64,000 bases of DNA from a virus, in IMG/VR virus record IMGVR_UViG_3300021431_000125. One strand, written 5' to 3'. The position numbers and the translations under genes were made by a program. Below, in pieces: positions 3,249 through 56,247 of the stretch (positions are counted from its first letter, which is position 1; each line of letters begins with the position of its first letter). The notes under the pieces were generated by a model that saw only the letters and a program-made list of their open reading frames with translations, made no database searches and was not told the DNA's origin.

Positions 3249-3275
3249 TATAACCGAATTTAACTTGTTTTTTCC
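3249..3275 (-). promoter_or_regulatory. class-I promoter-like element GGAAAAAA-N12-GGTTATA (mRNA sense)
   Basis: plus strand TATAACC-N12-TTTTTTCC; 5 nt upstream of ATG 3243; 28/29 identical to copy at 3544. Confidence 0.55.
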
Positions 3276-13526: not shown

Positions 13527-13538
13527 AATCTATTGTTC

Positions 13539-13754
13539 TTATATTATATAACCAATCAACAAGCCACAGCCGATACAACCCAATCCCATCGAAACCAGCA
13601 ATATGGTTATGTTGGTGTAGAGCGTCGGGGATATGCATTTCTTGGTTGAACGTTCATATTCCGATATAATCGCCGATATTTTAGCCCGAACGATTGTTGC
13701 AATTATGAAGCACACAAGTGACAACAGGGTTATTATAAAATTAACCATAATCAA
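13539..13754 (-). CDS. small membrane protein (2 TM)
   Basis: hydrophobic 71 aa. Confidence 0.4.
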   Translation of the reverse strand: MIMVNFIITLLSLVCFIIATIVRAKISAIISEYERSTKKCISPTLYTNITILLVSMGLGCIGCGLLIGYII

Positions 13755-14192
13755 TCAGTTTTTAGGGTTATTAATTTCGTTTAGAATTTTCTTCACATTA
13801 GTTTTAAGGTCTGCTGTTCTGTCTTTGTATTCATTCACAAGCCGCTCCAGGTCTTCTGTTCCGATTTCATTTTTGACAATCGCGCTTTTATATTGTGTTG
13901 CCAACAGAAAAGCCATAATTCCATTAGGCAATGGGTTGAAAATGTTGTCCCAACAATCCTGTGTGTTGTATTTGCACCCATCAAGAGATTCATTCATGCA
14001 ACCTTTACACTTGTCGTCAAACTTGGATTTCATCCATGGTTCCAGTTTGCTGACATCCACCGACAGCCTGGACGGGTCTTTCGGAAAATCCTCCAGATAT
14101 TCGTTTTTGTCTAGATAATATCCGTTGAACAGTTTACGGATACGCCTTTTACAGTTTCTTAAACTAGTGAAAAAATCCATAATAAATATCAA
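13755..14192 (-). CDS. hypothetical protein
   Basis: ORF track. Confidence 0.5.
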   Translation of the reverse strand: MIFIMDFFTSLRNCKRRIRKLFNGYYLDKNEYLEDFPKDPSRLSVDVSKLEPWMKSKFDDKCKGCMNESLDGCKYNTQDCWDNIFNPLPNGIMAFLLATQYKSAIVKNEIGTEDLERLVNEYKDRTADLKTNVKKILNEINNPKN

Positions 14193-20426: not shown

Positions 20427-20453
20427 TATAACCGTATCTTAGTTATTTTTTCC
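20427..20453 (-). promoter_or_regulatory. class-I promoter-like element upstream of Pnk-like kinase gene
   Basis: TATAACC-N12-TTTTTTCC; 30 nt to ATG 20397. Confidence 0.6.
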
Positions 20454-22763: not shown

Positions 22764-23063
22764 TCAGATTTCTTCACTTATTACGATGGCTCCTTGTATC
22801 CATATGCGTTTACCGTCAAGGTCGAAGAACACCTGGTTGTCCGCACCGTCGTCACGTATGTCGAATTTGCCTTTGTATGTCCTGATGGTATCTCCGTTAT
22901 AACTGTATACCGTCAATGTACGGTTGAGACCGCCACCCCAGTCACTGCCAATGCTTTTTATTTCACGTTTGCAGCTTTGTGGACCAAAAGCAAAAAATAC
23001 AAAAACCAAACCAACGATAATAAGTATAACCACAAAAATACCAAAAAATGTTCTTTTTTTCAT
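22764..23063 (-). CDS. small N-terminally membrane-anchored protein immediately downstream of sigma factor
   Basis: FFGIFVVILIIVGLVFVFFAF TM then ~70-aa soluble domain; start overlaps sigma stop. Confidence 0.5.
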   Translation of the reverse strand: MKKRTFFGIFVVILIIVGLVFVFFAFGPQSCKREIKSIGSDWGGGLNRTLTVYSYNGDTIRTYKGKFDIRDDGADNQVFFDLDGKRIWIQGAIVISEEI

Positions 23064-23599
23064 ATTCTAAAATATTTTCCGTAATTAAAATTCAATTTGT
23101 CTTTAATCCTATAATATCTGGACTTGATTGTACTTTCGGGCATCCCAAACATTTTGGAAATCTCCTTGAATGTATATTCGTCGATAGCGACAAGATTCAC
23201 CAAAGTACGTTCCTCTTCAGTCAGGCAGCGCATGATTTTCAGAATCAAGTCCTGTTTCTCATAATCGGTAGCCAAATCAAAATCGTCGCTTAATTCAGGA
23301 AGGAATTCACTCTCTATTGGAAGATACCGATACTTCATATCCTTCTTGTAGCGGTTAATGATTTGCCTCATAATTATCCTGTGCATCCATCCCTCAAAGG
23401 TTCCGTCACCCCTGTATTTTTTGATATTGGCAAATATTGACACGAAACCTTCAACCAACACATCCTGGGCAATGTCATCGTCAGCCGAATATCGTCGGCA
23501 TAAAGCATAAAACTTAGGACTGTACTTGTCATATAAGGCTCGTTGCATTGAAGGGTTGTTGTTTCGACACCCTTCTATAATGTTGTCTATATTATCCAT
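23060..23599 (-). CDS. ECF-type (sigma-70 family group 4) RNA polymerase sigma factor
   Basis: region 2 ALYDKYSPKFYALCRRYS..DIAQDVLVEGFVSIF...FEGWMHRIIMRQIINRYKK and region 4 LTEEERTLVNLVAIDEYTFKEISKMFGMPESTIKSRYYRIKDKL. Confidence 0.85.
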   Translation of the reverse strand: MDNIDNIIEGCRNNNPSMQRALYDKYSPKFYALCRRYSADDDIAQDVLVEGFVSIFANIKKYRGDGTFEGWMHRIIMRQIINRYKKDMKYRYLPIESEFLPELSDDFDLATDYEKQDLILKIMRCLTEEERTLVNLVAIDEYTFKEISKMFGMPESTIKSRYYRIKDKLNFNYGKYFRI

Positions 23600-33385: not shown

Positions 33386-33695
33386 CTTCTTTTTTCTTTT
33401 TCAAATAATCAAAATCCAAAGTCTCGCCAATTCAAAATTAGCGTATACTTCTTTGCACATACTTAAATTTTATATATTTTAAAAAACAATCCAGTCAGTG
33501 ATTTTTATGTCTTGTACATATAAACCGTTTACACCGTCATGGCTTTTAATGAACTCCGCTAGTTCTTTGGCTTTATCCTCCGAACTGCATATACTGTTAA
33601 GTTCATGTGAACCGTTAGTGTAAATGGTTTCCACCGTCCATACAATGCCGATTTTGTTCCCTACTTCATTTTCCATCCCGAAGTTTTTATTCTTT

Positions 33696-34055
33696 TCAAA
33701 CATTTTTGGTCAAGGGTGTATTGTAATTAAGGCGCCTGATATTCTCCAAATCTTCTGGAGGTATTTCGTTTCTCAGTTTTACATAAAAATCTTCCATAGC
33801 CTGTTCCGACTGGAAACAAACCAGAGCATCCATAACTTCATCAAAACAATGCACAATGCCAGCCTCAGTCAATTCTCTGTCAGCAATGCCGATTTCGTTA
33901 TTAGACCATTCAAATGTCCACAAATTGCAACTGTGATTAGTCTTCAGTTTATCTTTAATCAAGGAAATTCTTTCGTCCTTTTTCAGATTAAAATGGTCTT
34001 CCCTTCCATCGGACTTACCGATATACTCTTTTAACCTATCAGTATATGATGACAT
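33696..34055 (-). CDS. hypothetical protein
   Basis: ORF track. Confidence 0.45.
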   Translation of the reverse strand: MSSYTDRLKEYIGKSDGREDHFNLKKDERISLIKDKLKTNHSCNLWTFEWSNNEIGIADRELTEAGIVHCFDEVMDALVCFQSEQAMEDFYVKLRNEIPPEDLENIRRLNYNTPLTKNV

Positions 34056-34060
34056 ACAGC

Positions 34061-36462: not shown

Positions 36463-36488
36463 TATAACCGAAAACATTCGGTTTTTTC
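36463..36488 (-). promoter_or_regulatory. class-I promoter-like element just downstream of terminator hairpin
   Basis: TATAACC-N12-TTTTTTC. Confidence 0.55.
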
Positions 36489-36494
36489 AACAAA

Positions 36495-36521
36495 AATGGA
36501 GGGAATTTTTTCAACCCTCCA
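36495..36521 (-). terminator. factor-independent terminator of gene 36511-37452
   Basis: GGAGGG (36498-36503) / CCCTCC (36515-36520) stem, 11-nt loop, followed on minus strand by ATTTTTGTTG; overlaps stop codon. Confidence 0.55.
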
Positions 36522-37452
36522 GTTTTATGTATTTTGAAAATATACCTTCAGACACTTGTTTATATTGCTGTTCTTTCCTTTTTGCGACATTCCTTTCAAA
36601 TTTCTTATATTGGCTGTTTCTTCCAACCAAATGATTATGATATTGCGGGAAATTGGATATACACCATTGTACAAGAAACCCCAGGGTTTCAAATTCAACT
36701 AATCTTCTACCTGTTATTTCACTATCAACATACCACATTTTCGTTTCATCATCCTGAAATAAGAATATCAAATTTCTGGCACTGGGACCATAAAAAATAA
36801 CTTGATATTGTTGGTCTCCCCAATGGTATATTTGTATACCGCTGGCTTGGAATAATACCGCACAATCGCCATATCCACTCTTTTCAGCAACACTGGCATC
36901 GTCGGCATCAAAAGCAAAATCATACCCCGCACCATACTTGTAGTTTGTTGTACCAATACCTGGGGTATAAGCTAAATTGTCTATATCGACACCATAACTA
37001 AATCCCTCTTTATACAGTCCAGGTATATTGCTGCTACTAGTCATATGAACAAGCCATTCGTTATGTACTTCTCTTCTAAAATCAGCTGCACAGAATAAAG
37101 GTACTTCAGTGTCACCATGATAGCTTACATATTGAATGAAATCCTCACAAAATGGCTTTAAATCAGTCTTGAAATATTCAGATAACGCTTCTGCCATTTC
37201 ATAATCATCCCATTGGAGTATATCTTCAGGAACTTTATCTTGTTCAACCATCTGTTCAATCGTTTCATAAGCATTTTTGTTGTTTTCCAGATAATCACGG
37301 AACAGCCATGGTAGTTTGCAAGCGCATTCCCACGCTTTTTCAGCATCGTCCATGGCAAGAAATTTCTTCAATGGAACCATGTAGTCTTTGTCTAGATATT
37401 CGTTCAACGCCTTTTTTACAATACTGGCTATGTGTTTTTCGTTGATATTCAT
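36511..37452 (-). CDS. hypothetical protein (313 aa), first gene of leftward unit from the divergent control region
   Basis: ORF track; followed by terminator hairpin. Confidence 0.55.
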   Translation of the reverse strand: MNINEKHIASIVKKALNEYLDKDYMVPLKKFLAMDDAEKAWECACKLPWLFRDYLENNKNAYETIEQMVEQDKVPEDILQWDDYEMAEALSEYFKTDLKPFCEDFIQYVSYHGDTEVPLFCAADFRREVHNEWLVHMTSSSNIPGLYKEGFSYGVDIDNLAYTPGIGTTNYKYGAGYDFAFDADDASVAEKSGYGDCAVLFQASGIQIYHWGDQQYQVIFYGPSARNLIFLFQDDETKMWYVDSEITGRRLVEFETLGFLVQWCISNFPQYHNHLVGRNSQYKKFERNVAKRKEQQYKQVSEGIFSKYIKLEG

Positions 37453-37470: not shown

Positions 37471-37489
37471 TCAAATATACAATAAATAG
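37471..37489 (-). promoter_or_regulatory. putative leftward promoter of divergent region (TGTATATTTGA)
   Basis: ~25 nt upstream of ATG 37452. Confidence 0.3.
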
Positions 37490-37510: not shown

Positions 37511-37622
37511 CGCTTTAGAAGGTCCTTAAACTTAAGGATGAAAAAGAAAATATAAAAATTAAATTTATATTTTCTTTTTTACTTACACCTAAAGTATATT
37601 ATAATATAAGGGACCTTTAGCG
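37511..37622. promoter_or_regulatory. nested inverted repeats in divergent intergenic region (possible operator/bidirectional control region)
   Basis: outer arms CGCTTTAGAAGGTCC (37511-37525) / GGACCTTTAGCG (37611-37622); CCTTAAACTTAAGG palindrome (37524-37537); inner 16/17-bp arms AAAAAGAAAATATAAA (37541-37556) / TTTATATTTTCTTTTTT (37564-37580). Confidence 0.45.
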
Positions 37623-37650
37623 TACACACGCACGTTTTATATTTAGCCAC

Positions 37651-37664
37651 TATTTATATTAAAA
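37651..37664 (+). promoter_or_regulatory. putative rightward promoter of plus-strand island (TATTTATATTAAAA)
   Basis: -10-like TATATTAA 22 nt upstream of ATG 37678. Confidence 0.35.
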
Positions 37665-37677
37665 TACTTGCATACAA

Positions 37678-38457
37678 ATGGACAACGAAAAAAACACGAT
37701 ACTTAGCGAGGTTTACAAATACTACACAAACACCAGGAACTACCTTAACGAAAGCCTCAATGAAGACGGATATTGTGTCACTGTCGACGACCAAATGTTC
37801 AATGACATACTTGACATGATAAACACAGGCACGTATAGTGAAACAGAGCCAGGGCATATTCTCATTCCAACCGAAGGCGGTTATACGCTCCATATCACAC
37901 CGAACGGTGGCATATACCTTGACGATGAAAGAGGCAATGAAATGGAAGTCAGCATTGACCAGCAGAAACTTAACCAAATAATGAACACCATTGGTTCAAG
38001 GGAATACAAACAAGTTTCTGAAAACAGGAACAACCCGTTCACCAACGTGGAACAAGACCCTGAATCTGGGTTCATCAAATTTACCAAAAAGGACAACGTT
38101 TCTGACGACGATGCCAAAAAAGCGATGAGAACGGCAGTCAACAAATCCAAAGAAAGACACGATGCCAAGCGTCAGGAAACAACCCCGTCTTCAATAAAAG
38201 ACAAGAGAAACGACCCAGAATACATGGGAAAAGTCCACGGCTATTGGAACAAAAGGCGCGACAACATGGCAGAGCCCCACGGATATGGCACAAGCGGCAC
38301 TCTGTCAATGTTCAAGGAAAGTACAGACGAAGCCGACATGTATGACCCAGCAGCGGACAAGCCAGACACGACAGTCTACCCACCAAAAGGTCTCGGCATC
38401 AACGAAGCCAGACTAAACAAAATCATATCAAGAATAATCAAAAACAAATTCAGATAA
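37678..38457 (+). CDS. plus-strand island protein 1 (259 aa, charged/low-complexity, C-terminal GINEARLNKII motif)
   Basis: only plus-strand coding run in window; TATATTAA -10-like element 22 nt upstream. Confidence 0.6.
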   Translation: MDNEKNTILSEVYKYYTNTRNYLNESLNEDGYCVTVDDQMFNDILDMINTGTYSETEPGHILIPTEGGYTLHITPNGGIYLDDERGNEMEVSIDQQKLNQIMNTIGSREYKQVSENRNNPFTNVEQDPESGFIKFTKKDNVSDDDAKKAMRTAVNKSKERHDAKRQETTPSSIKDKRNDPEYMGKVHGYWNKRRDNMAEPHGYGTSGTLSMFKESTDEADMYDPAADKPDTTVYPPKGLGINEARLNKIISRIIKNKFR

Positions 38458-38459
38458 AA

Positions 38460-38855
38460 ATGAACAAAAATATCAGGACTTTAAACGAAGCGCAACTGTG
38501 CGACTTGGTAACCAATATCACCAAACAATGCCTTATGGAATCAATGGGTCTCGACCCAGAAAGCGGCGAAGACGAATATGGAATGGAGCAGGATTATTTT
38601 AATTCACCTGGCAATGTTGCTGACAGTTACGGTTCAGATGTACCAGACGAGGAATTCTATGACGATTTCTTTGACAACCCAGCTGAAGAGGCTTTCGGTG
38701 ATGACACCGACAGTGAACTTGATTCATATGACGACGGTGGATACGACACATTGCTTGAAAACAAGGAAAAGGAAGACTTTGCTGAAAAACAGGAAAAACT
38801 TTTCACTTTTATCACTGAAAATTGGGATAACCACGCCAATAACCTTATTAAATAA
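38460..38855 (+). CDS. plus-strand island protein 2: highly acidic Asp/Glu/aromatic-rich protein (possible DNA mimic)
   Basis: 131 aa, DEEFYDDFFDNPAEEAFGDDTDSELDSYDDGGYD; N-terminal IRTLNEAQL motif shared with neighbours. Confidence 0.6.
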   Translation: MNKNIRTLNEAQLCDLVTNITKQCLMESMGLDPESGEDEYGMEQDYFNSPGNVADSYGSDVPDEEFYDDFFDNPAEEAFGDDTDSELDSYDDGGYDTLLENKEKEDFAEKQEKLFTFITENWDNHANNLIK

Positions 38856-38870
38856 AAAACGTTATCGAAA

Positions 38871-39137
38871 ATGAAAAAAGTAATAAAACTGACTGAGGCA
38901 AACCTCAAGAACATGATTAGAGAGGCTGTCGTTGAAGCGGTCAACGGCGGTTGGGAAGTCGACGACAACGAAGCTAGGAAGGCTTATGAATTTGCAGCCG
39001 ACACCCTGGGTAAAGAAACAATTGACAGTGCTATAATAAGAGCAATGTCAGACAATACGCTTGCCGAGATACTGGCATATGTTTTCCGTATGTATGATTT
39101 CAGAGAATGGGATGAATACAAACAAAACAGTTATTAA
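38871..39137 (+). CDS. plus-strand island protein 3 (88 aa)
   Basis: N-terminal IKLTEANLKNMI motif shared with proteins 1 and 2; followed by terminator. Confidence 0.55.
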   Translation: MKKVIKLTEANLKNMIREAVVEAVNGGWEVDDNEARKAYEFAADTLGKETIDSAIIRAMSDNTLAEILAYVFRMYDFREWDEYKQNSY

Positions 39138-39167: not shown

Positions 39168-39201
39168 TAAGCGGACAATATGAAAATATGCCCGCTTTTT
39201 T
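39168..39201 (+). terminator. factor-independent terminator of plus-strand island (between convergent genes)
   Basis: AAGCGG...CCGCTT stem with internal ATAT/ATAT pairing then TTTTTT (39196-39201). Confidence 0.55.
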
Positions 39202-39673: not shown

Positions 39674-40465
39674 TTACTTGATATTGATAAACGGTATTGA
39701 ATTTCCCATCATGTAGGTAGGTAAAGTACCGTTCCATTTCTGCACAGCCTCATATTCCACAAGTTTCGGGTTGTTGGCAAGGGAGTTGGCTTTGATTCGC
39801 ATGGCTTCAGCTTCAGCTTCGGCTGCAATCTTTGTCTGTTTTGCCTTTTCCTCAACCTGGATAGTGACATTCTTGGCTTTCAATGCAGCCTGTTCAGCGA
39901 CCTGTTTTTCCTTAATGGCTGTTTCAAAAGCATCGTCAAAATCGATATCAACAAGCTGGAACTGAATGTTGGTGAAATATCTATTGTCCAGTGTCTGTCT
40001 CAACACCTCTTCAATATTCCTGCGTACAGCGTCGCGGTTTTCCACAATCTGGGTTGCGGCGAAATTGCCAAAAGCCTCTTTCATTGCCGAGCGGATATAA
40101 GGCACAACGATACGGTTATGGTAATCATCGCCGACGTTTTTCATGAGCTGGCTGACATTTTCCCGAACCAGGTCGTAGTTGATGGTATAGTCAACGACAG
40201 AGGTCTGCACGTCACGGGTGTATGAGTTTTCCTGACCGTCGAATTTTTTCTGCTGGATGTTGACTTTCTTCACCTTCTGCACAAAAGGCAGTTTCATGTG
40301 GAGACCGTCGTTGATTACACTGTCGCTCATTTTGCCGAATGTGCTGAGCACACCTCTTTCAGTGGATTTGACTGTGTAGAAAGTTGAGGACAACACCACA
40401 AGTGCAAACAGTCCAAGCACACACCATAGAATAAGTTTCGTTCTGTTCATTTCGTTCTGTTTCAT
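39674..40465 (-). CDS. SPFH / band-7 (prohibitin/stomatin-like) membrane protein
   Basis: N-terminal TM, then STERGVLSTFGK...SPFH core and C-terminal Ala/Glu-rich coiled coil (AEQAALKAK...AAEAEAEAMRIKA). Confidence 0.8.
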   Translation of the reverse strand: MKQNEMNRTKLILWCVLGLFALVVLSSTFYTVKSTERGVLSTFGKMSDSVINDGLHMKLPFVQKVKKVNIQQKKFDGQENSYTRDVQTSVVDYTINYDLVRENVSQLMKNVGDDYHNRIVVPYIRSAMKEAFGNFAATQIVENRDAVRRNIEEVLRQTLDNRYFTNIQFQLVDIDFDDAFETAIKEKQVAEQAALKAKNVTIQVEEKAKQTKIAAEAEAEAMRIKANSLANNPKLVEYEAVQKWNGTLPTYMMGNSIPFINIK

Positions 40466-45206: not shown

Positions 45207-45233
45207 TATAACCGAAAACAACGGTTTTTTTCC
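45207..45233 (-). promoter_or_regulatory. class-I promoter-like element
   Basis: TATAACC-N12-TTTTTTCC; 30 nt to ATG 45177. Confidence 0.6.
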
Positions 45234-49650: not shown

Positions 49651-50127
49651 TTACGCCTTTTTTTTCTTGTCCTTAATGTAATTTTCAGCCGCCTTAACAC
49701 ATTCGTCTGGCACATATGCCCACTCGTCTGGTTCGACAGGAAAAAACAGGTCGGTTATCCATGTGTAATTGGAATATTCCATCAGTAGACAGTATCCCAC
49801 ACTGTATCTGCATATAACAAGGCTGCCATCCTTAGGTCTAACTTTGATTGTGGAAGGATGTTTCTTTCGGAATATCCTTTCGAGAAAACTCGGTTTGTAA
49901 GGTTGTTCGAATTTGACCCATTTAGGTGTGAAAAACCCATCTATAGACCATTCCATCTCAACCTCATCACGGTGTACATAAAAATCACCGTACTTGTACA
50001 ATACGGTTGTCTTGTCATCACCTTCAAATGTCTCAGCCAGTTTTTCACAAACCCTCAGCCCCTTGGCATGACTTTTGTCAGTGACATTTTTTTGCAGAAT
50101 AATCACCCAATCCAAATGTGTTCTCAT
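49651..50127 (-). CDS. hypothetical protein
   Basis: ORF track. Confidence 0.5.
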   Translation of the reverse strand: MRTHLDWVIILQKNVTDKSHAKGLRVCEKLAETFEGDDKTTVLYKYGDFYVHRDEVEMEWSIDGFFTPKWVKFEQPYKPSFLERIFRKKHPSTIKVRPKDGSLVICRYSVGYCLLMEYSNYTWITDLFFPVEPDEWAYVPDECVKAAENYIKDKKKKA

Positions 50128-50332
50128 GGTTCTTTGATTTTAAACCTAAATATACAAATACCTTTCCTCGCCAATTTCCATTCCTGCAACTTTTTTCTCT
50201 ATTTCGTCGTAATCCCAGTATACAAGCGGCTGCAACCAATATGGTTGAGTTTCATCGGGCTTAATTTCATATGCCAGTTTTCCATTTTTCTCATCTGGCA
50301 ATCGTTTCAGAATATATTTCATTTCAAATTGT

Positions 50333-50728
50333 TTACTTTTGATACATGTCTTCGGGTGCTTCAAGCGCAAGCCCCTTTTCAATCAACCCATGGTAGTCGA
50401 AATGATGCGCATTAAGCCAATCAAACATTTTACTTTCGTTGTCCAAAGTAAGCTTATCTGTAAACATCATTGGACAAAGGTTCACACAAGCAAAATTAGC
50501 AAATTCGCTCTTTTCCTCCTCGGTCATGGTTGACATTGGGCGAAGATATGGTTTAATGTAATCCAACCCTCTGAAATTAACAACTGGTGATTCTATCTCA
50601 ACACCCCACAGTTCTTCGTTAAACGTGCCGCTGCCACTCATTTCCTCATAATATACCTGGATAATTGTATGGGAAGTTAGTCTGCCACACAAATCTTTTA
50701 AGAGGAGTTTCTTTTCGTCTTCAGTCAT
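50333..50728 (-). CDS. paralog family B member
   Basis: LLLKDLCGRL...IKPYLRPMSTMTEEEKSEF...FDWLNAHHFDYHGLIEKGLALEAPEDMY. Confidence 0.55.
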   Translation of the reverse strand: MTEDEKKLLLKDLCGRLTSHTIIQVYYEEMSGSGTFNEELWGVEIESPVVNFRGLDYIKPYLRPMSTMTEEEKSEFANFACVNLCPMMFTDKLTLDNESKMFDWLNAHHFDYHGLIEKGLALEAPEDMYQK

Positions 50729-53279: not shown

Positions 53280-53306
53280 ATATTTAATTTTTTTTGATTA
53301 TATCAC

Positions 53307-53333
53307 TATAACCAAAATTAAGTAATTTTTTCC
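53307..53333 (-). promoter_or_regulatory. class-I promoter-like element
   Basis: TATAACC-N12-TTTTTTCC; 28 nt to ATG 53279. Confidence 0.6.
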
Positions 53334-53561
53334 GCAAAATACCAAAAATAATAATCCATAGACACATTAGTTGTGTTACGAATTTTTTTCATTATTAAAC
53401 GATTTTGTGGTTTTGGATAAAGATAAATGCCCTTTTCGAGAACAGGTAAATCTTTTCGTACACGTTTCCTGTTTTCCTTGAAATAATTCTCAGTTAATTT
53501 GTTATAACACTTAATAGCATCACAAGCATCTCTGAAGTGTCTAACAATTTTACCATCAATT

Positions 53562-54040: not shown

Positions 54041-54123
54041 TGTAAAACGGAAAACTATTTACATTTGGGTTATGGATTCAACCAATTCCTGTGTCTCTTT
54101 CCTTATATCCATAGTCACGTTTA

Positions 54124-54492
54124 TTATTTGTGATAATCATAATTACAGGACTTTCCTTTATATTCCCAGGAAACAATCTCATGCTCGTCTGGATTTATTC
54201 TCTTGTCCGCCTTAAATCCAGACAGCCCGCTTTTCACGTACACACCGTCTGTTTCGTTCACAAAGGGGACAATAGTGTCACGCAGATGGTCGATAACCTC
54301 ACCCAAAGTCCAGGTTGTGCCAAAACTTTCATATTTGCGATACAACGTTTTCATGATATTGAAAATTTTCTTCATGTCCCACTTTTCACTATCAAAGTAA
54401 AAATGCCCTTCAATAGCATTCCATTCCTCACGGTTGGACGGGCGAAAACCCATGTCACCGCTGTAACTGTACATATAACTAACAAGTTTCAT
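54124..54492 (-). CDS. hypothetical protein
   Basis: ORF track. Confidence 0.5.
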   Translation of the reverse strand: MKLVSYMYSYSGDMGFRPSNREEWNAIEGHFYFDSEKWDMKKIFNIMKTLYRKYESFGTTWTLGEVIDHLRDTIVPFVNETDGVYVKSGLSGFKADKRINPDEHEIVSWEYKGKSCNYDYHK

Positions 54493-54673
54493 ATTTCAAT
54501 TTGTTTTAAAATTAGTTTCACTTTTTTGGTCAGCTTTCCAATCGTTAAAACATTGTTTACTGCAAAAAACTAACCCCTTGTAGACGATAAACCCGTCATT
54601 TTCAAGCTCTTTTTTGCTTGGTTTGTTGCCAGCATATTGGTTTATTGCAAATCCGCAATAATCACACGTGACT

Positions 54674-56220: not shown

Positions 56221-56247
56221 TATAACCAAATTCAAACTGTTTTTTCC
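56221..56247 (-). promoter_or_regulatory. class-I promoter-like element
   Basis: TATAACC-N12-TTTTTTCC; 35 nt to ATG 56186. Confidence 0.6.

What the first reader, a model, noticed from the sequence alone, without database searches (positions are those of the whole stretch)
37678..39137. Lone plus-strand three-gene island: paralogous N-terminal L-x-E-A motif, an extremely acidic putative DNA-mimic protein, own promoter and terminator
All other genes in 64 kb are minus-strand. This island diverges from a palindrome-rich control region and ends at a strong hairpin terminator (39168-39201) convergent with the minus-strand array. The three products share a short motif: protein 1 C-terminus GINEARLNKIISRII, protein 2 N-terminus IRTLNEAQLCDLV, protein 3 N-terminus IKLTEANLKNMI. 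The shared (L/I)-x-E followed by A matches the (L/I)xE cleavage rule of T4-type prohead proteases and the arrangement of T4 internal-protein capsid-targeting sequences; this is speculative. Protein 2 (131 aa) is Asp/Glu/Tyr/Phe-rich (for example DEEFYDDFFDNPAEEAFGDDTDSELDSYDDGGYD), a composition typical of DNA-mimic anti-restriction proteins such as Ocr or ArdA and of ejected internal proteins. Protein 1 is long, charged and low-complexity. Together the island looks like a cassette of packaged or ejected anti-defence proteins, or another co-targeted set, that is regulated separately from the surrounding early genes.
Basis: partly seen in the sequence, partly recalled or inferred. Interest (0 to 1): 0.75.

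Follow-up and report, generated by a model that had tools for sequence, protein, structure and literature searches.

The report
Late-gene cassette of capsid-targeted phage proteins
A small block of genes in a giant rumen phage carries the same short "address label" and the same late-gene switch as the phage's head-assembly genes, so its products are probably loaded into the capsid, and the label recurs in about ten thousand uncharacterised protein families.

Summary
P1 (37678-38457), P2 (38460-38855) and P3 (38871-39137) are the only credible plus-strand genes in 64 kb. They have their own promoter region and a conserved terminator.

Relatives occur only in uncultivated jumbo phages of 330-412 kb, mostly from rumen samples. 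These phages encode a T4-type portal and a gp21-type prohead protease. P3 carries a canonical ~26-residue N-terminal tag, MKKxI(K/R)LTE-amphipathic helix-LxE. The tag's most conserved residues form two (L/I)-x-E sites, which is the T4 gp21 cleavage rule.

In relatives, P3 homologues and other tagged small proteins sit beside the prohead protease. P2, the C-terminus of P1 and the divergent 313-aa neighbour carry weaker versions of the tag. The island and that neighbour are driven by mirror-image (A/C)TATTTAT(A/T) boxes. The same box precedes head-module genes. The 19 early-type promoters in the window are different.

Best reading (about 0.6): a late cassette of proteins targeted to the prohead core and trimmed by the protease, like T4 internal and core proteins. 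P2's acidity matches T4 core protein gp67, so the DNA-mimic idea is unsupported. There is no proteomic proof. The tag matches 9,782 protein clusters and appears undescribed.

The parts
36511..37452 (-). Divergent partner gene (313 aa, pI 4.8). It begins with a short tag-like N-terminus, MNINE|KHIASIVKKALNE|YLDK. It is conserved upstream of P1 in most relatives.
   Evidence: Homologues are present in L004, L006, L007 and L008. Its core domain also occurs in a 540-aa protein between terminase and portal in L034 and in an 868-aa protein in L084. No Pfam, PHROG, PADLOC or NCBIfam match.
37481..37489 (-). Late-type promoter box CTATTTATT, 29 nt upstream of the ATG of the 313-aa gene. It mirrors the P1 box.
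   Evidence: The equivalent minus-strand box is present in L004, L006, L007, L008 and L013.
37541..37579 (.). Central perfect palindrome AAAAAGAAAATATAAA-N7-TTTATATTTTCTTTTT between the two divergent promoters. It is a putative island-specific operator.
   Evidence: The exact-pattern scan finds it only upstream of P1, in L004-L007, L013 and L014 among the 94 loci then held. L008 carries it with a wider spacer. It is not repeated in the window.
37650..37658 (+). Late-type promoter box CTATTTATA (extended form GATATTTATATTAAAA in relatives), 28 nt upstream of the P1 ATG.
   Evidence: The same box lies 25-45 nt upstream of portal, scaffold-like, protease and tagged genes in head modules L009, L011, L012, L034, L054, L058, L063, L074 and L076.
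37678..38457 (+). P1 (259 aa). It has a conserved alpha/beta N-terminal half, a charged helical middle and a disordered segment. Its C-terminal tail is tag-like, GINE|ARLNKIISRIIKNKFR (nt 38398-38454).
   Evidence: 26 homologues, all from metagenomes. (AlphaFold pLDDT 55). (C-terminus against tag, E 1e-3). No PDB or fold match.
38460..38855 (+). P2 (131 aa, net charge -28, pI 4.05). Residues 1-27 form a divergent tag (LNE10 ... LME27, the same 17-residue spacing as the canonical tag). After it come conserved blocks, an acidic linker rich in insertions and deletions, and a conserved C-terminus, FITENWDNHANNLIK. P2 is fused to P1 in two relatives.
   Evidence: Fusions P0022 and P0024.
38871..39137 (+). 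P3 (88 aa), a five-helix protein with a canonical N-terminal tag, MKKVIKLTE|ANLKNMIREAVVE (nt 38871-38948). Its homologues lie beside the prohead protease in other genomes.
   Evidence: (pLDDT 80; residues 1-8 extended, helix starts at E9). (32 bits, E 7e-10 against an independent tag profile).
39169..39201 (+). Intrinsic-terminator-like hairpin AAGCGGaCA...TGcCCGCTT followed by a T-run. It closes the + unit against the convergent minus-strand genes.
   Evidence: -9.3 kcal/mol, z -2.35. Hairpins at the same position in L002, L004, L006, L007 and L008.

Best explanation
The island P1-P2-P3 and its divergent 313-aa neighbour form a late-expressed cassette embedded in an early-gene array. The genome is an uncultivated T4-like jumbo phage, probably infecting rumen Prevotella or Segatella.

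Proposed mechanism, with each step marked as shown or inferred:
1. Shown by sequence: two mirror-image late-type promoter boxes, (A/C)TATTTAT(A/T), flank a conserved palindrome and face the 313-aa gene leftwards and P1-P2-P3 rightwards. A hairpin terminator ends the rightward unit.
2. Shown for P3, weaker for P2, the 313-aa gene and the P1 C-terminus: the products carry the lineage's ~26-residue tag. The tag has a short basic leader (MKKxI(K/R)), an L-T-E site, an amphipathic helix and a second L-x-E site.
3. Inferred: the tag docks the protein to the scaffolding core while the prohead assembles, as the 10-residue T4 capsid-targeting sequence does.
4. Inferred: the gp21-family prohead protease cuts after the glutamates and removes the tag, leaving the mature proteins inside the head.
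5. Open: afterwards they either act as core or internal structural proteins or are ejected with the DNA. P2 resembles T4's very acidic gp67 in charge.

P1 and P2 act together, because they are fused in some relatives.
For: Lineage has the machinery:
- Relatives of P1 and P3 lie on contigs of 330-412 kb.
- Protein P0024 (a P1-P2 fusion) and the P3 homologue P0039 both list a longest contig of 399,780 bp, so they are probably from one genome.
- In L009-L012 the P3 homologue lies directly after a PF03420 protease and near a Portal_T4 gene.
- That protease is 31% identical to T4 gp21 (E 8e-23), and it keeps the blocks that align with T4's HP and GVSSRG segments.

Tag biology:
- Several small proteins between portal/scaffold and protease all begin MKKTIRLTESEL.
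- Of 77 IMG/VR loci picked only by the tag pattern, 20 hold the protease within 10 kb. That is p = 2e-8 against a rough 6% random expectation; the 77 loci are not all independent.
- The tag starts within the first 12 residues in 143 of 162 tagged genes.
- In 48 tags not selected by the scan pattern, E9 is 100% conserved, E26 98%, L/I7 98% and L/I24 93%. These are two T4-type L/I-x-E sites (T4 rule: PMC9026906).
- In the P3 model the helix starts exactly at E9, after an extended leader.

Late regulation:
- The box (A/C)TATTTAT(A/T) precedes almost every head-module gene, P1 in every relative, and the 313-aa gene in mirror orientation.
- In loci without head genes it lies within 70 nt upstream of 53% of tagged genes and 16% of untagged genes (Fisher p = 2e-14).
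- The window holds only 8 copies of the box. No copy precedes any other gene, and none of the 32 long upstream regions of minus-strand genes contains its TATTTAT core.
- The early genes instead use GAAAAA-N11-15-GGTTAT: 19 copies, all on the minus strand, 0.17 expected by chance.

Island as a tagged-gene hotspot:
- L002 carries two other canonically tagged genes (157 and 220 aa) in the same island.
- P3 sits in the island in the window, L013 and L014, but in the head module elsewhere.

T4 precedents:
- The internal proteins share only a capsid-targeting sequence (PMC3012670).
- In the IPIII targeting sequence, residues 8 and 10 govern processing (PMC9026906).
- gp67 has pI 4.05 and net charge -25.
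- gp21 and Alt undergo C-terminal processing (PMC9026906). T4 gp21 ends ..LAE|AMKKAL. The jumbo-phage proteases end [LIV][NST]E-KIxKIKxILNS, which resembles the P1 tail.
Against: - There is no virion proteomics and no cleavage data for any member, and there is no cultured relative.
- The window does not contain a head module, so the protease is shown only for relatives.
- The motifs of P2, the 313-aa gene and the P1 C-terminus are not individually significant against an independent tag profile.
- The tag is conserved well beyond the first glutamate and is far longer than T4's 10-residue sequence, so it could be an interaction helix with another role.
- Canonically tagged genes also occur as singletons in Prevotellaceae chromosomes with no phage head genes nearby.
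- The 'late' label for the promoter box rests on its association with structural genes, not on expression data.
Confidence: 0.6

Rival explanations
1. The tag is a general interaction or oligomerisation helix of late proteins. It might bind a chaperone or a tail or baseplate assembly factor, or form a hetero-oligomer of P1, P2, P3 and the 313-aa protein. It would not be a capsid address and would not be cleaved.
For: The conserved part forms an amphipathic helix (hydrophobic moment 0.3-0.6; helix 9-25 in the P3 model). Conservation extends 17 residues beyond the first glutamate. In the P1-P2 fusions the P1 copy has decayed, as expected if the two helices merely hold P1 and P2 together. Tagged genes are scattered over many genome positions, and only about a quarter of sampled loci are near the protease.
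Against: The most conserved residues are two glutamates, each with L/I two positions before it. A packing helix would conserve its hydrophobic face instead. The tag sits at the extreme N-terminus in 88% of cases. Tagged genes are enriched next to the protease and scaffold genes specifically.
Confidence: 0.2
2. P2 is a DNA-mimic anti-restriction protein of the Ocr/ArdA type. It would be either expressed on its own or delivered with the DNA, and the island would be an anti-defence cassette.
For: Net charge -28, pI 4.05, 27.5% Asp+Glu with many aromatic residues; it is the most acidic protein in the window. In T4 the packaged internal proteins include a restriction inhibitor, IPI* (PMC3012670).
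Against: No match to Ocr, ArdA or any family in Pfam, PHROGs, PADLOC or NCBIfam. The acidic region varies in length and breaks into short conserved blocks, which suggests disorder rather than a rigid DNA-shaped surface. Equal acidity is found in the T4 prohead core protein gp67. P2 is covalently fused to P1 in some relatives.
Confidence: 0.1
3. The strand switch and the motif have no shared function. The island would be an inserted moron block with chance resemblances at its protein termini.
For: Three of the four motif copies are individually non-significant. An IS1595 transposase sits in the island in L002, which shows the site accepts insertions.
Against: The arrangement, the promoter boxes, the palindrome and the terminator are conserved across relatives with only 45-66% protein identity. 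P3's tag is highly significant. The three weak copies rank 2, 4 and 7 of 343 ORFs and lie at the expected termini.
Confidence: 0.05

Closest known systems
T4 capsid-targeting sequence (CTS) and internal proteins IPI, IPII, IPIII and Alt
   Same: Both are short N-terminal leaders that start MK and end in L/I-x-E. Here L7-T8-E9; in the T4 IPIII targeting sequence, residues 8 and 10 govern processing. In both cases otherwise unrelated cargo proteins share only the leader, the cargo genes lie in variable loci away from the head module, a gp21-family protease is present, and expression is late. T4 Alt also has a C-terminal propeptide, as proposed here for P1 (PMC9026906, PMC3012670).
   Different: There is no sequence similarity to T4 proteins. 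The tag is about 26 residues rather than 10. It contains an amphipathic helix and a second (often a third) L/I-x-E site. It is sometimes repeated or internal because of gene fusions. The family is far larger (9,782 clusters). Packaging and cleavage have not been shown.
T4 prohead core proteins gp67 and gp68
   Same: Small proteins encoded between portal and protease. gp67 has a helical N-terminus with LIE sites and an extremely acidic remainder (pI 4.05, net charge -25), like P2 (pI 4.05, net charge -28). The tagged small genes here occupy the same portal-to-protease slot.
   Different: P2 shows no detectable similarity to gp67. P2 lies in a separate island, not in the head module, and it has conserved non-acidic terminal blocks.
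Propeptides of inner-body and ejection proteins in phiKZ, 201phi2-1 and SPN3US
   Same: Jumbo phages in which many head-internal proteins are processed after glutamate by a diverged gp21 homologue, with redundant cleavage sites in the propeptide (PMC9026906).
   Different: Those proteases use S/A-x-E, and no shared linear tag has been described for them. The present lineage is a different, T4-portal-type branch. Its nearest isolates are Microcystis phage Mel-JY01, Flavobacterium phage immuto and Rhodothermus phage RM378.
Ocr and ArdA DNA-mimic anti-restriction proteins
   Same: Strong negative charge.
   Different: No homology. P2's acidic part varies in length and is probably disordered.
Encapsulin cargo-loading peptides (recalled from my own knowledge, not tested here)
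   Same: A short terminal peptide, at either the N- or the C-terminus, that addresses diverse cargo to the inside of an HK97-fold shell.
   Different: A different sequence, no proteolytic removal, and not a virus.

Membership tests
T4-type CTS-bearing prohead-core or internal proteins | The phage encodes a gp21-family (Peptidase S77, PF03420) prohead protease. | tested here: met
   Met in relatives only. PF03420 genes are present in L009-L012. The L011 protease is 31% identical to T4 gp21, E 8e-23. Homologues occur in 20 of 77 tag-selected loci. The window itself holds no head module, so this is inferred for this genome.
T4-type CTS-bearing prohead-core or internal proteins | A short terminal propeptide that ends in the protease's L/I-x-E site. 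| tested here: met
   P3 LTE9, P2 LNE10 and LME27, the 313-aa protein INE5 and LNE18, P1 INE243. Across independent tags, E9 is 100% and E26 98% conserved, each with L/I two residues before.
T4-type CTS-bearing prohead-core or internal proteins | Expression together with the head genes (late). | tested here: inconclusive
   The island shares the (A/C)TATTTAT(A/T) box with head-module genes and lacks the early element. No expression data exist.
T4-type CTS-bearing prohead-core or internal proteins | Physical presence in proheads or virions, with the propeptide removed. | not testable with these tools
   Needs virion mass spectrometry. There is no cultured relative in the phage collection.
T4-type CTS-bearing prohead-core or internal proteins | Sequence homology to T4 IPs, gp67 or gp68. 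| tested here: not met
   P2 against gp67 gives no alignment. P1, P2 and P3 have no Pfam or PHROG hits. They work like the T4 proteins but are not members by descent.
DNA-mimic anti-restriction proteins (Ocr, ArdA) | Homology to the Ocr or ArdA families. | tested here: not met
   No Pfam, PADLOC, PHROG or NCBIfam match for P2.
DNA-mimic anti-restriction proteins (Ocr, ArdA) | A rigid fold that displays a B-DNA-like array of carboxylates. | tested here: inconclusive
The alignment shows an acidic linker rich in insertions and deletions between short conserved blocks, which argues for disorder.
Rho-independent terminator | A GC-containing hairpin followed by a U-run at the 3' end of the unit. | tested here: met
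   39169-39201, -9.3 kcal/mol, z -2.35. Hairpins lie at the same position in five relatives. The consensus scanner missed it because the loop exceeds 8 nt.

The most novel reading that the evidence does not exclude
The ~26-residue tag MKKxIRLTESDLHRIVKESVxxxLxE would be a sequence-readable capsid-loading and cleavage signal used by a large uncultivated clade of T4-like jumbo phages of Prevotella and Bacteroidales. The whole packaged, and possibly ejected, protein repertoire could then be read directly from genomes. That repertoire spans thousands of unrelated cargo families, including this island. Host chromosomes that carry tagged singletons could encode proteins that ride into, or sabotage, phage capsids.
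Probability: 0.45. Interest if true: 0.85.

Novelty: new variant of a known kind. Interest (0 to 1): 0.68.

Why it matters
Proteins packed into phage heads and injected with the DNA are the first phage weapons to reach the cell. T4's IPI* and Alt are examples. They normally have to be found by proteomics on cultured phages. If this tag is a loading signal, the packaged proteome of an abundant, uncultivated group of gut and rumen jumbo phages could be listed from sequence alone.

That would give a large candidate pool for anti-defence and host-takeover effectors. It would also give a portable tag for loading foreign proteins into such capsids, as was done with the T4 capsid-targeting sequence. 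The work further defines the early and late promoter elements of this phage group.

Tried and rejected
- DNA and protein searches of GenBank phages with the island, P1, P3, the 313-aa gene, a 503-aa window protein and the consensus tag found nothing useful.
- Pfam, PHROGs, PADLOC, NCBIfam and PDB sequence searches of P1, P2, P3 and the 313-aa protein found nothing significant.
- The P3 model was good (pLDDT 80), but Foldseek against viral and PDB libraries gave no hit at E <= 0.001.
- The sigma-70 promoter scan found no more sites than chance (12 found, 10.8 expected) and missed the terminator.
- tRNA and Rfam scans of the window found nothing.
The 44-residue version returned only short fragments.
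- My first local tag HMM was circular, because it was trained on the island proteins. I replaced it with an independent profile, which weakened the case for P2, P1 and the 313-aa gene.
- The test of whether tagged genes prefer the minority strand was negative (27% against 25%).
- An early 'one tag per polypeptide' idea was dropped after many proteins with two to four tags were found.
- Context look-ups of two short tagged proteins (L016, L017) were uninformative.
- Literature searches for the motif string and for capsid targeting in huge phages found no description.
Full report
OBSERVATION. The three plus-strand ORFs are real: P1 37678-38457 (259 aa), P2 38460-38855 (131 aa) and P3 38871-39137 (88 aa). 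The window is 37% G+C and is packed with about 117 minus-strand ORFs. A codon-usage score trained on long minus-strand genes gives P1, P2 and P3 values of 0.46-0.61, against a minus-gene mean of 0.355. Every other plus-strand ORF of 50 aa or more scores below zero, like antisense sequence. The island is therefore the only credible plus-strand coding unit in 64 kb. There are no tRNA genes and no Rfam families in the window.

The 225-bp region upstream of P1 holds a perfect 16-nt inverted repeat at 37541-37579 (-14.1 kcal/mol as RNA, z -6.4). Downstream, a hairpin at 39169-39197 with a T-run folds at -9.3 kcal/mol (z -2.35). That is moderate rather than strong, but stronger hairpins occupy the same position in relatives.

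P2 has net charge -28 and pI 4.05, and it is the most acidic protein in the window.

The shared motif is present. A regular expression finds it in exactly four adjacent genes. The fourth is the divergent 313-aa gene 36511-37452(-), which begins MNINEKHIASIVKKALNEYL.

WHAT THE GENOME IS. Nothing in GenBank phages resembles the region. P1 has 26 homologues, all from metagenomes, on contigs of up to 360-400 kb. An IMG/VR contig is 98% identical. Sample names point to rumen and bovine material.

Relatives carry a Portal_T4 portal and a Peptidase_S77 (PF03420) prohead protease. That protease is 31% identical to T4 gp21 (E 8e-23) and keeps the blocks that align with T4's HP and GVSSRG segments. The portal's nearest cultured relatives are distant T4-like phages of Microcystis, Flavobacterium and Rhodothermus.

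T4-like 'Jug' phages of 360-402 kb that infect Bacteroides or Phocaeicola were described recently (PMC12880540). The phages here may be related to them. Tag-bearing genes, and an IS1595-type transposase like one found in the phage island, also occur in Prevotella and Segatella genomes. This suggests a Prevotellaceae host.

CONSERVED ANATOMY. Loci L004 and L006-L008 repeat the same layout: a ~313-aa gene on the minus strand, about 210 bp of spacer, then P1 and P2 on the plus strand, all inside an otherwise minus-strand array. In L013 and L014 the divergent gene is a 489-512-aa protein instead. In L002 an IS1595 transposase takes its place. P3 is in the island only in the window, L013 and L014. 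L002 instead has two other genes in the island (157 and 220 aa) that begin MKKTIRLNEGEL and MKKIVRLNESEL.

In two relatives P1 and P2 are one protein. The P2 start (MSKKVTKINEQQL) is still visible inside the fusion, and the P1 C-terminal motif has decayed. P1 and P2 therefore work together.

THE KEY CONTEXT. P3 homologues at 63-64% identity lie in head modules, directly after the prohead protease. One of them probably comes from the same 399,780-bp genome as a P1-P2 fusion, because both proteins list that length as their longest contig.

The neighbouring small genes there (102, 107, 117 and 281 aa) all begin MKKTIRLTESEL. A profile of the tag found 9,782 cluster representatives at E <= 0.001 among 1.84 billion proteins. 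Pfam has no family for it.

A scan of IMG/VR for [IV]RLTESDL gave 77 loci, many on contigs of 330-412 kb. In these loci:
- 162 of 1,616 genes carry the tag, and in 143 of them it starts within the first 12 residues.
- 20 loci hold the protease within 10 kb (binomial p = 2e-8 against a rough 6% random expectation; the loci are not all independent).
- The recurrent order is portal, scaffold-like gene, tagged small genes, protease, tagged genes.

This is the slot that gp67 and gp68 occupy in T4.

In 48 tags that were not selected by the scan pattern, the most conserved positions are E9 (100%), E26 (98%), L/I7 (98%) and L/I24 (93%). These make two L/I-x-E sites that bracket an amphipathic helix. 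T4 gp21 cuts after L/I-x-E. In the 10-residue targeting sequence of T4 IPIII, residues 8 and 10 govern processing (PMC9026906). The P3 model (pLDDT 80) has an extended leader at residues 1-8, and its first helix starts at E9.

REGULATION. The box (A/C)TATTTAT(A/T) lies 25-45 nt upstream of almost every head-module gene. It also lies 28 nt upstream of P1 in the window and at the equivalent place in every relative. A mirror-image copy lies upstream of the divergent gene.

The window has only 8 copies of the box on both strands, about the number expected by chance, and no copy precedes any other gene. None of the 32 long upstream regions of minus-strand genes contains its TATTTAT core. The early genes instead use GAAAAA-N11-15-GGTTAT: 19 copies, all on the minus strand, with 0.17 expected by chance.

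Outside head modules, 53% of tagged genes have the box within 70 nt upstream, against 16% of untagged genes (Fisher p = 2e-14). The island is therefore co-regulated with structural genes. The central palindrome is specific to the P1 upstream region and may add island-specific control.

CAVEATS. Against a tag profile built only from the IMG/VR loci, P3 scores 32 bits (E 7e-10). The 313-aa protein, P2 and the P1 C-terminus score only 2.5, 1.7 and 0.6 bits, although they rank 2, 4 and 7 of 343 ORFs and match at the expected termini. In profile-profile comparison the P2 family aligns without gaps to the tag (E 4e-5, probability 70%). P2 shares the canonical 17-residue spacing between its two glutamates. 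The P1 C-terminus aligns weakly (E 1e-3, probability 22%).

The window has no head module. There are no proteomic or expression data. Canonically tagged genes also sit as singletons in Prevotellaceae chromosomes.

P2 AND THE DNA-MIMIC IDEA. P2 matches no anti-restriction or other known family. Its alignment shows conserved blocks (ESMGLDPExGED, EEFYDDFFxNPAEE, FITENWDNHANNLIK) separated by acidic spacers rich in insertions and deletions. It also shows conserved LLE and ITE sites.

T4's prohead core protein gp67 has the same pI (4.05), net charge -25 and an N-terminus with LIE sites, although the two proteins share no sequence similarity. High acidity is therefore expected for a core protein and does not point to DNA mimicry.

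P1 has a conserved alpha/beta half, but the model is poor and matches no known fold. The jumbo-phage proteases end in a conserved [LIV][NST]E-KIxKIKxILNS tail, and T4 gp21 ends LAE-AMKKAL. These give a precedent for P1's C-terminal INE-ARLNKIISRII tail, given that T4 gp21 and Alt undergo C-terminal processing (PMC9026906).

VERDICT. The best-supported reading (about 0.6) is a late cassette of proteins addressed to the prohead core by a lineage-specific tag and trimmed by the gp21-type protease. This works like the T4 internal and core proteins, but the proteins are not their homologues. Whether they end up as structural core components or as ejected effectors is open. An anti-defence role is untested.

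The main rivals are a non-cleaved interaction helix (0.2) and a DNA mimic (0.1). The tag itself appears undescribed: the motif string occurs in no paper I could search, and no Pfam family covers it. It spans roughly ten thousand protein clusters.

Noticed in passing
window, 19 sites, e.g. 3250-3274, 20428-20452, 36464-36488, 45208-45232, 56222-56246 (all minus strand): An early-type promoter-like element, GAAAAA-N11-15-GGTTAT (extended form CGGAAAAAA..TT(C/T)GGTTATA), occurs 19 times, always on the minus strand, against 0.17 expected by chance. It is absent from the island's control region.
   Followed up: partly
L111 9995-10258 (Segatella bryantii DSM 11371); L109 9392-10420 (Prevotella sp. 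MA2016); about 30 Prevotellaceae and Bacteroidales MAG loci, L096-L127: Canonically tagged genes occur as singletons in bacterial chromosomes with no phage head genes nearby. A recurrent bacterial family has an N-terminal '..SNHGTWLWTWYD..' domain followed by an internal tag. They may be phage-derived morons or host proteins that exploit the tag; this remains unexplained.
   Followed up: partly
L002 4826-5749; L109 10421-11407: An IS1595-type transposase replaces the 313-aa gene in one phage island. A protein with a very similar N-terminus lies next to the tagged gene in Prevotella sp. MA2016, which hints at exchange between phage and host.
   Followed up: no
P0022, P0024; L009 4133-4978 (281 aa): Fusion between adjacent tagged genes appears frequent. 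In the P1-P2 fusions and the 281-aa protein, the start of a downstream gene ('..AIMKKTVRLTESEL..' in the 281-aa protein) sits in the middle of the protein. Most of the 150 best profile hits have two to four tag copies.
   Followed up: partly
L009 3332-4081, L011 4212-4955 and protease homologues in about 20 loci: All gp21-type proteases of this clade end in a conserved tail, [LIV][NST]E-KIxKIKxILNS. It may be their own core-docking and self-cleavage segment. T4 gp21 ends LAE-AMKKAL.
   Followed up: partly
L034 8937-10559; L084 46-2652: The core domain of the 313-aa neighbour recurs inside larger late proteins. One is encoded between terminase and portal. Its N-terminus resembles that of the tagged L105 protein, which has a sub-threshold ADP-ribosyltransferase (Tox-ART-HYD1) hit.
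   Followed up: no
window 39674-40465 (-): An SPFH/Band-7 protein with an N-terminal membrane segment (PF01145, E 5e-30) lies about 0.5 kb downstream of the island, beyond two small minus-strand ORFs, on the minus strand.
   Followed up: no
window 13527-14188, 33386-34060, 49789-50720, 53280-53561, 54046-54673: These gaps contain only antisense-like plus-strand ORFs. They may hold minus-strand genes with non-ATG starts, or non-coding elements.
   Followed up: no
L009 and L010, bases 1-978 (portal, 1141 aa); L015 1961-3706: One relative has an intein-containing portal (PF14890 together with Portal_T4). A Cas12f/TnpB-like gene sits in a structural region of another.
   Followed up: no
window 23060-23599 (-); L004 11583-11993: The window ORF's N-terminus looks like an ECF sigma factor by eye (no family scan was run). 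In L004 a called gene has recorded Pfam hits to sigma-70 region 4. Both lie in the early array and are candidates for the factor that reads one of the phage promoter classes.
   Followed up: no
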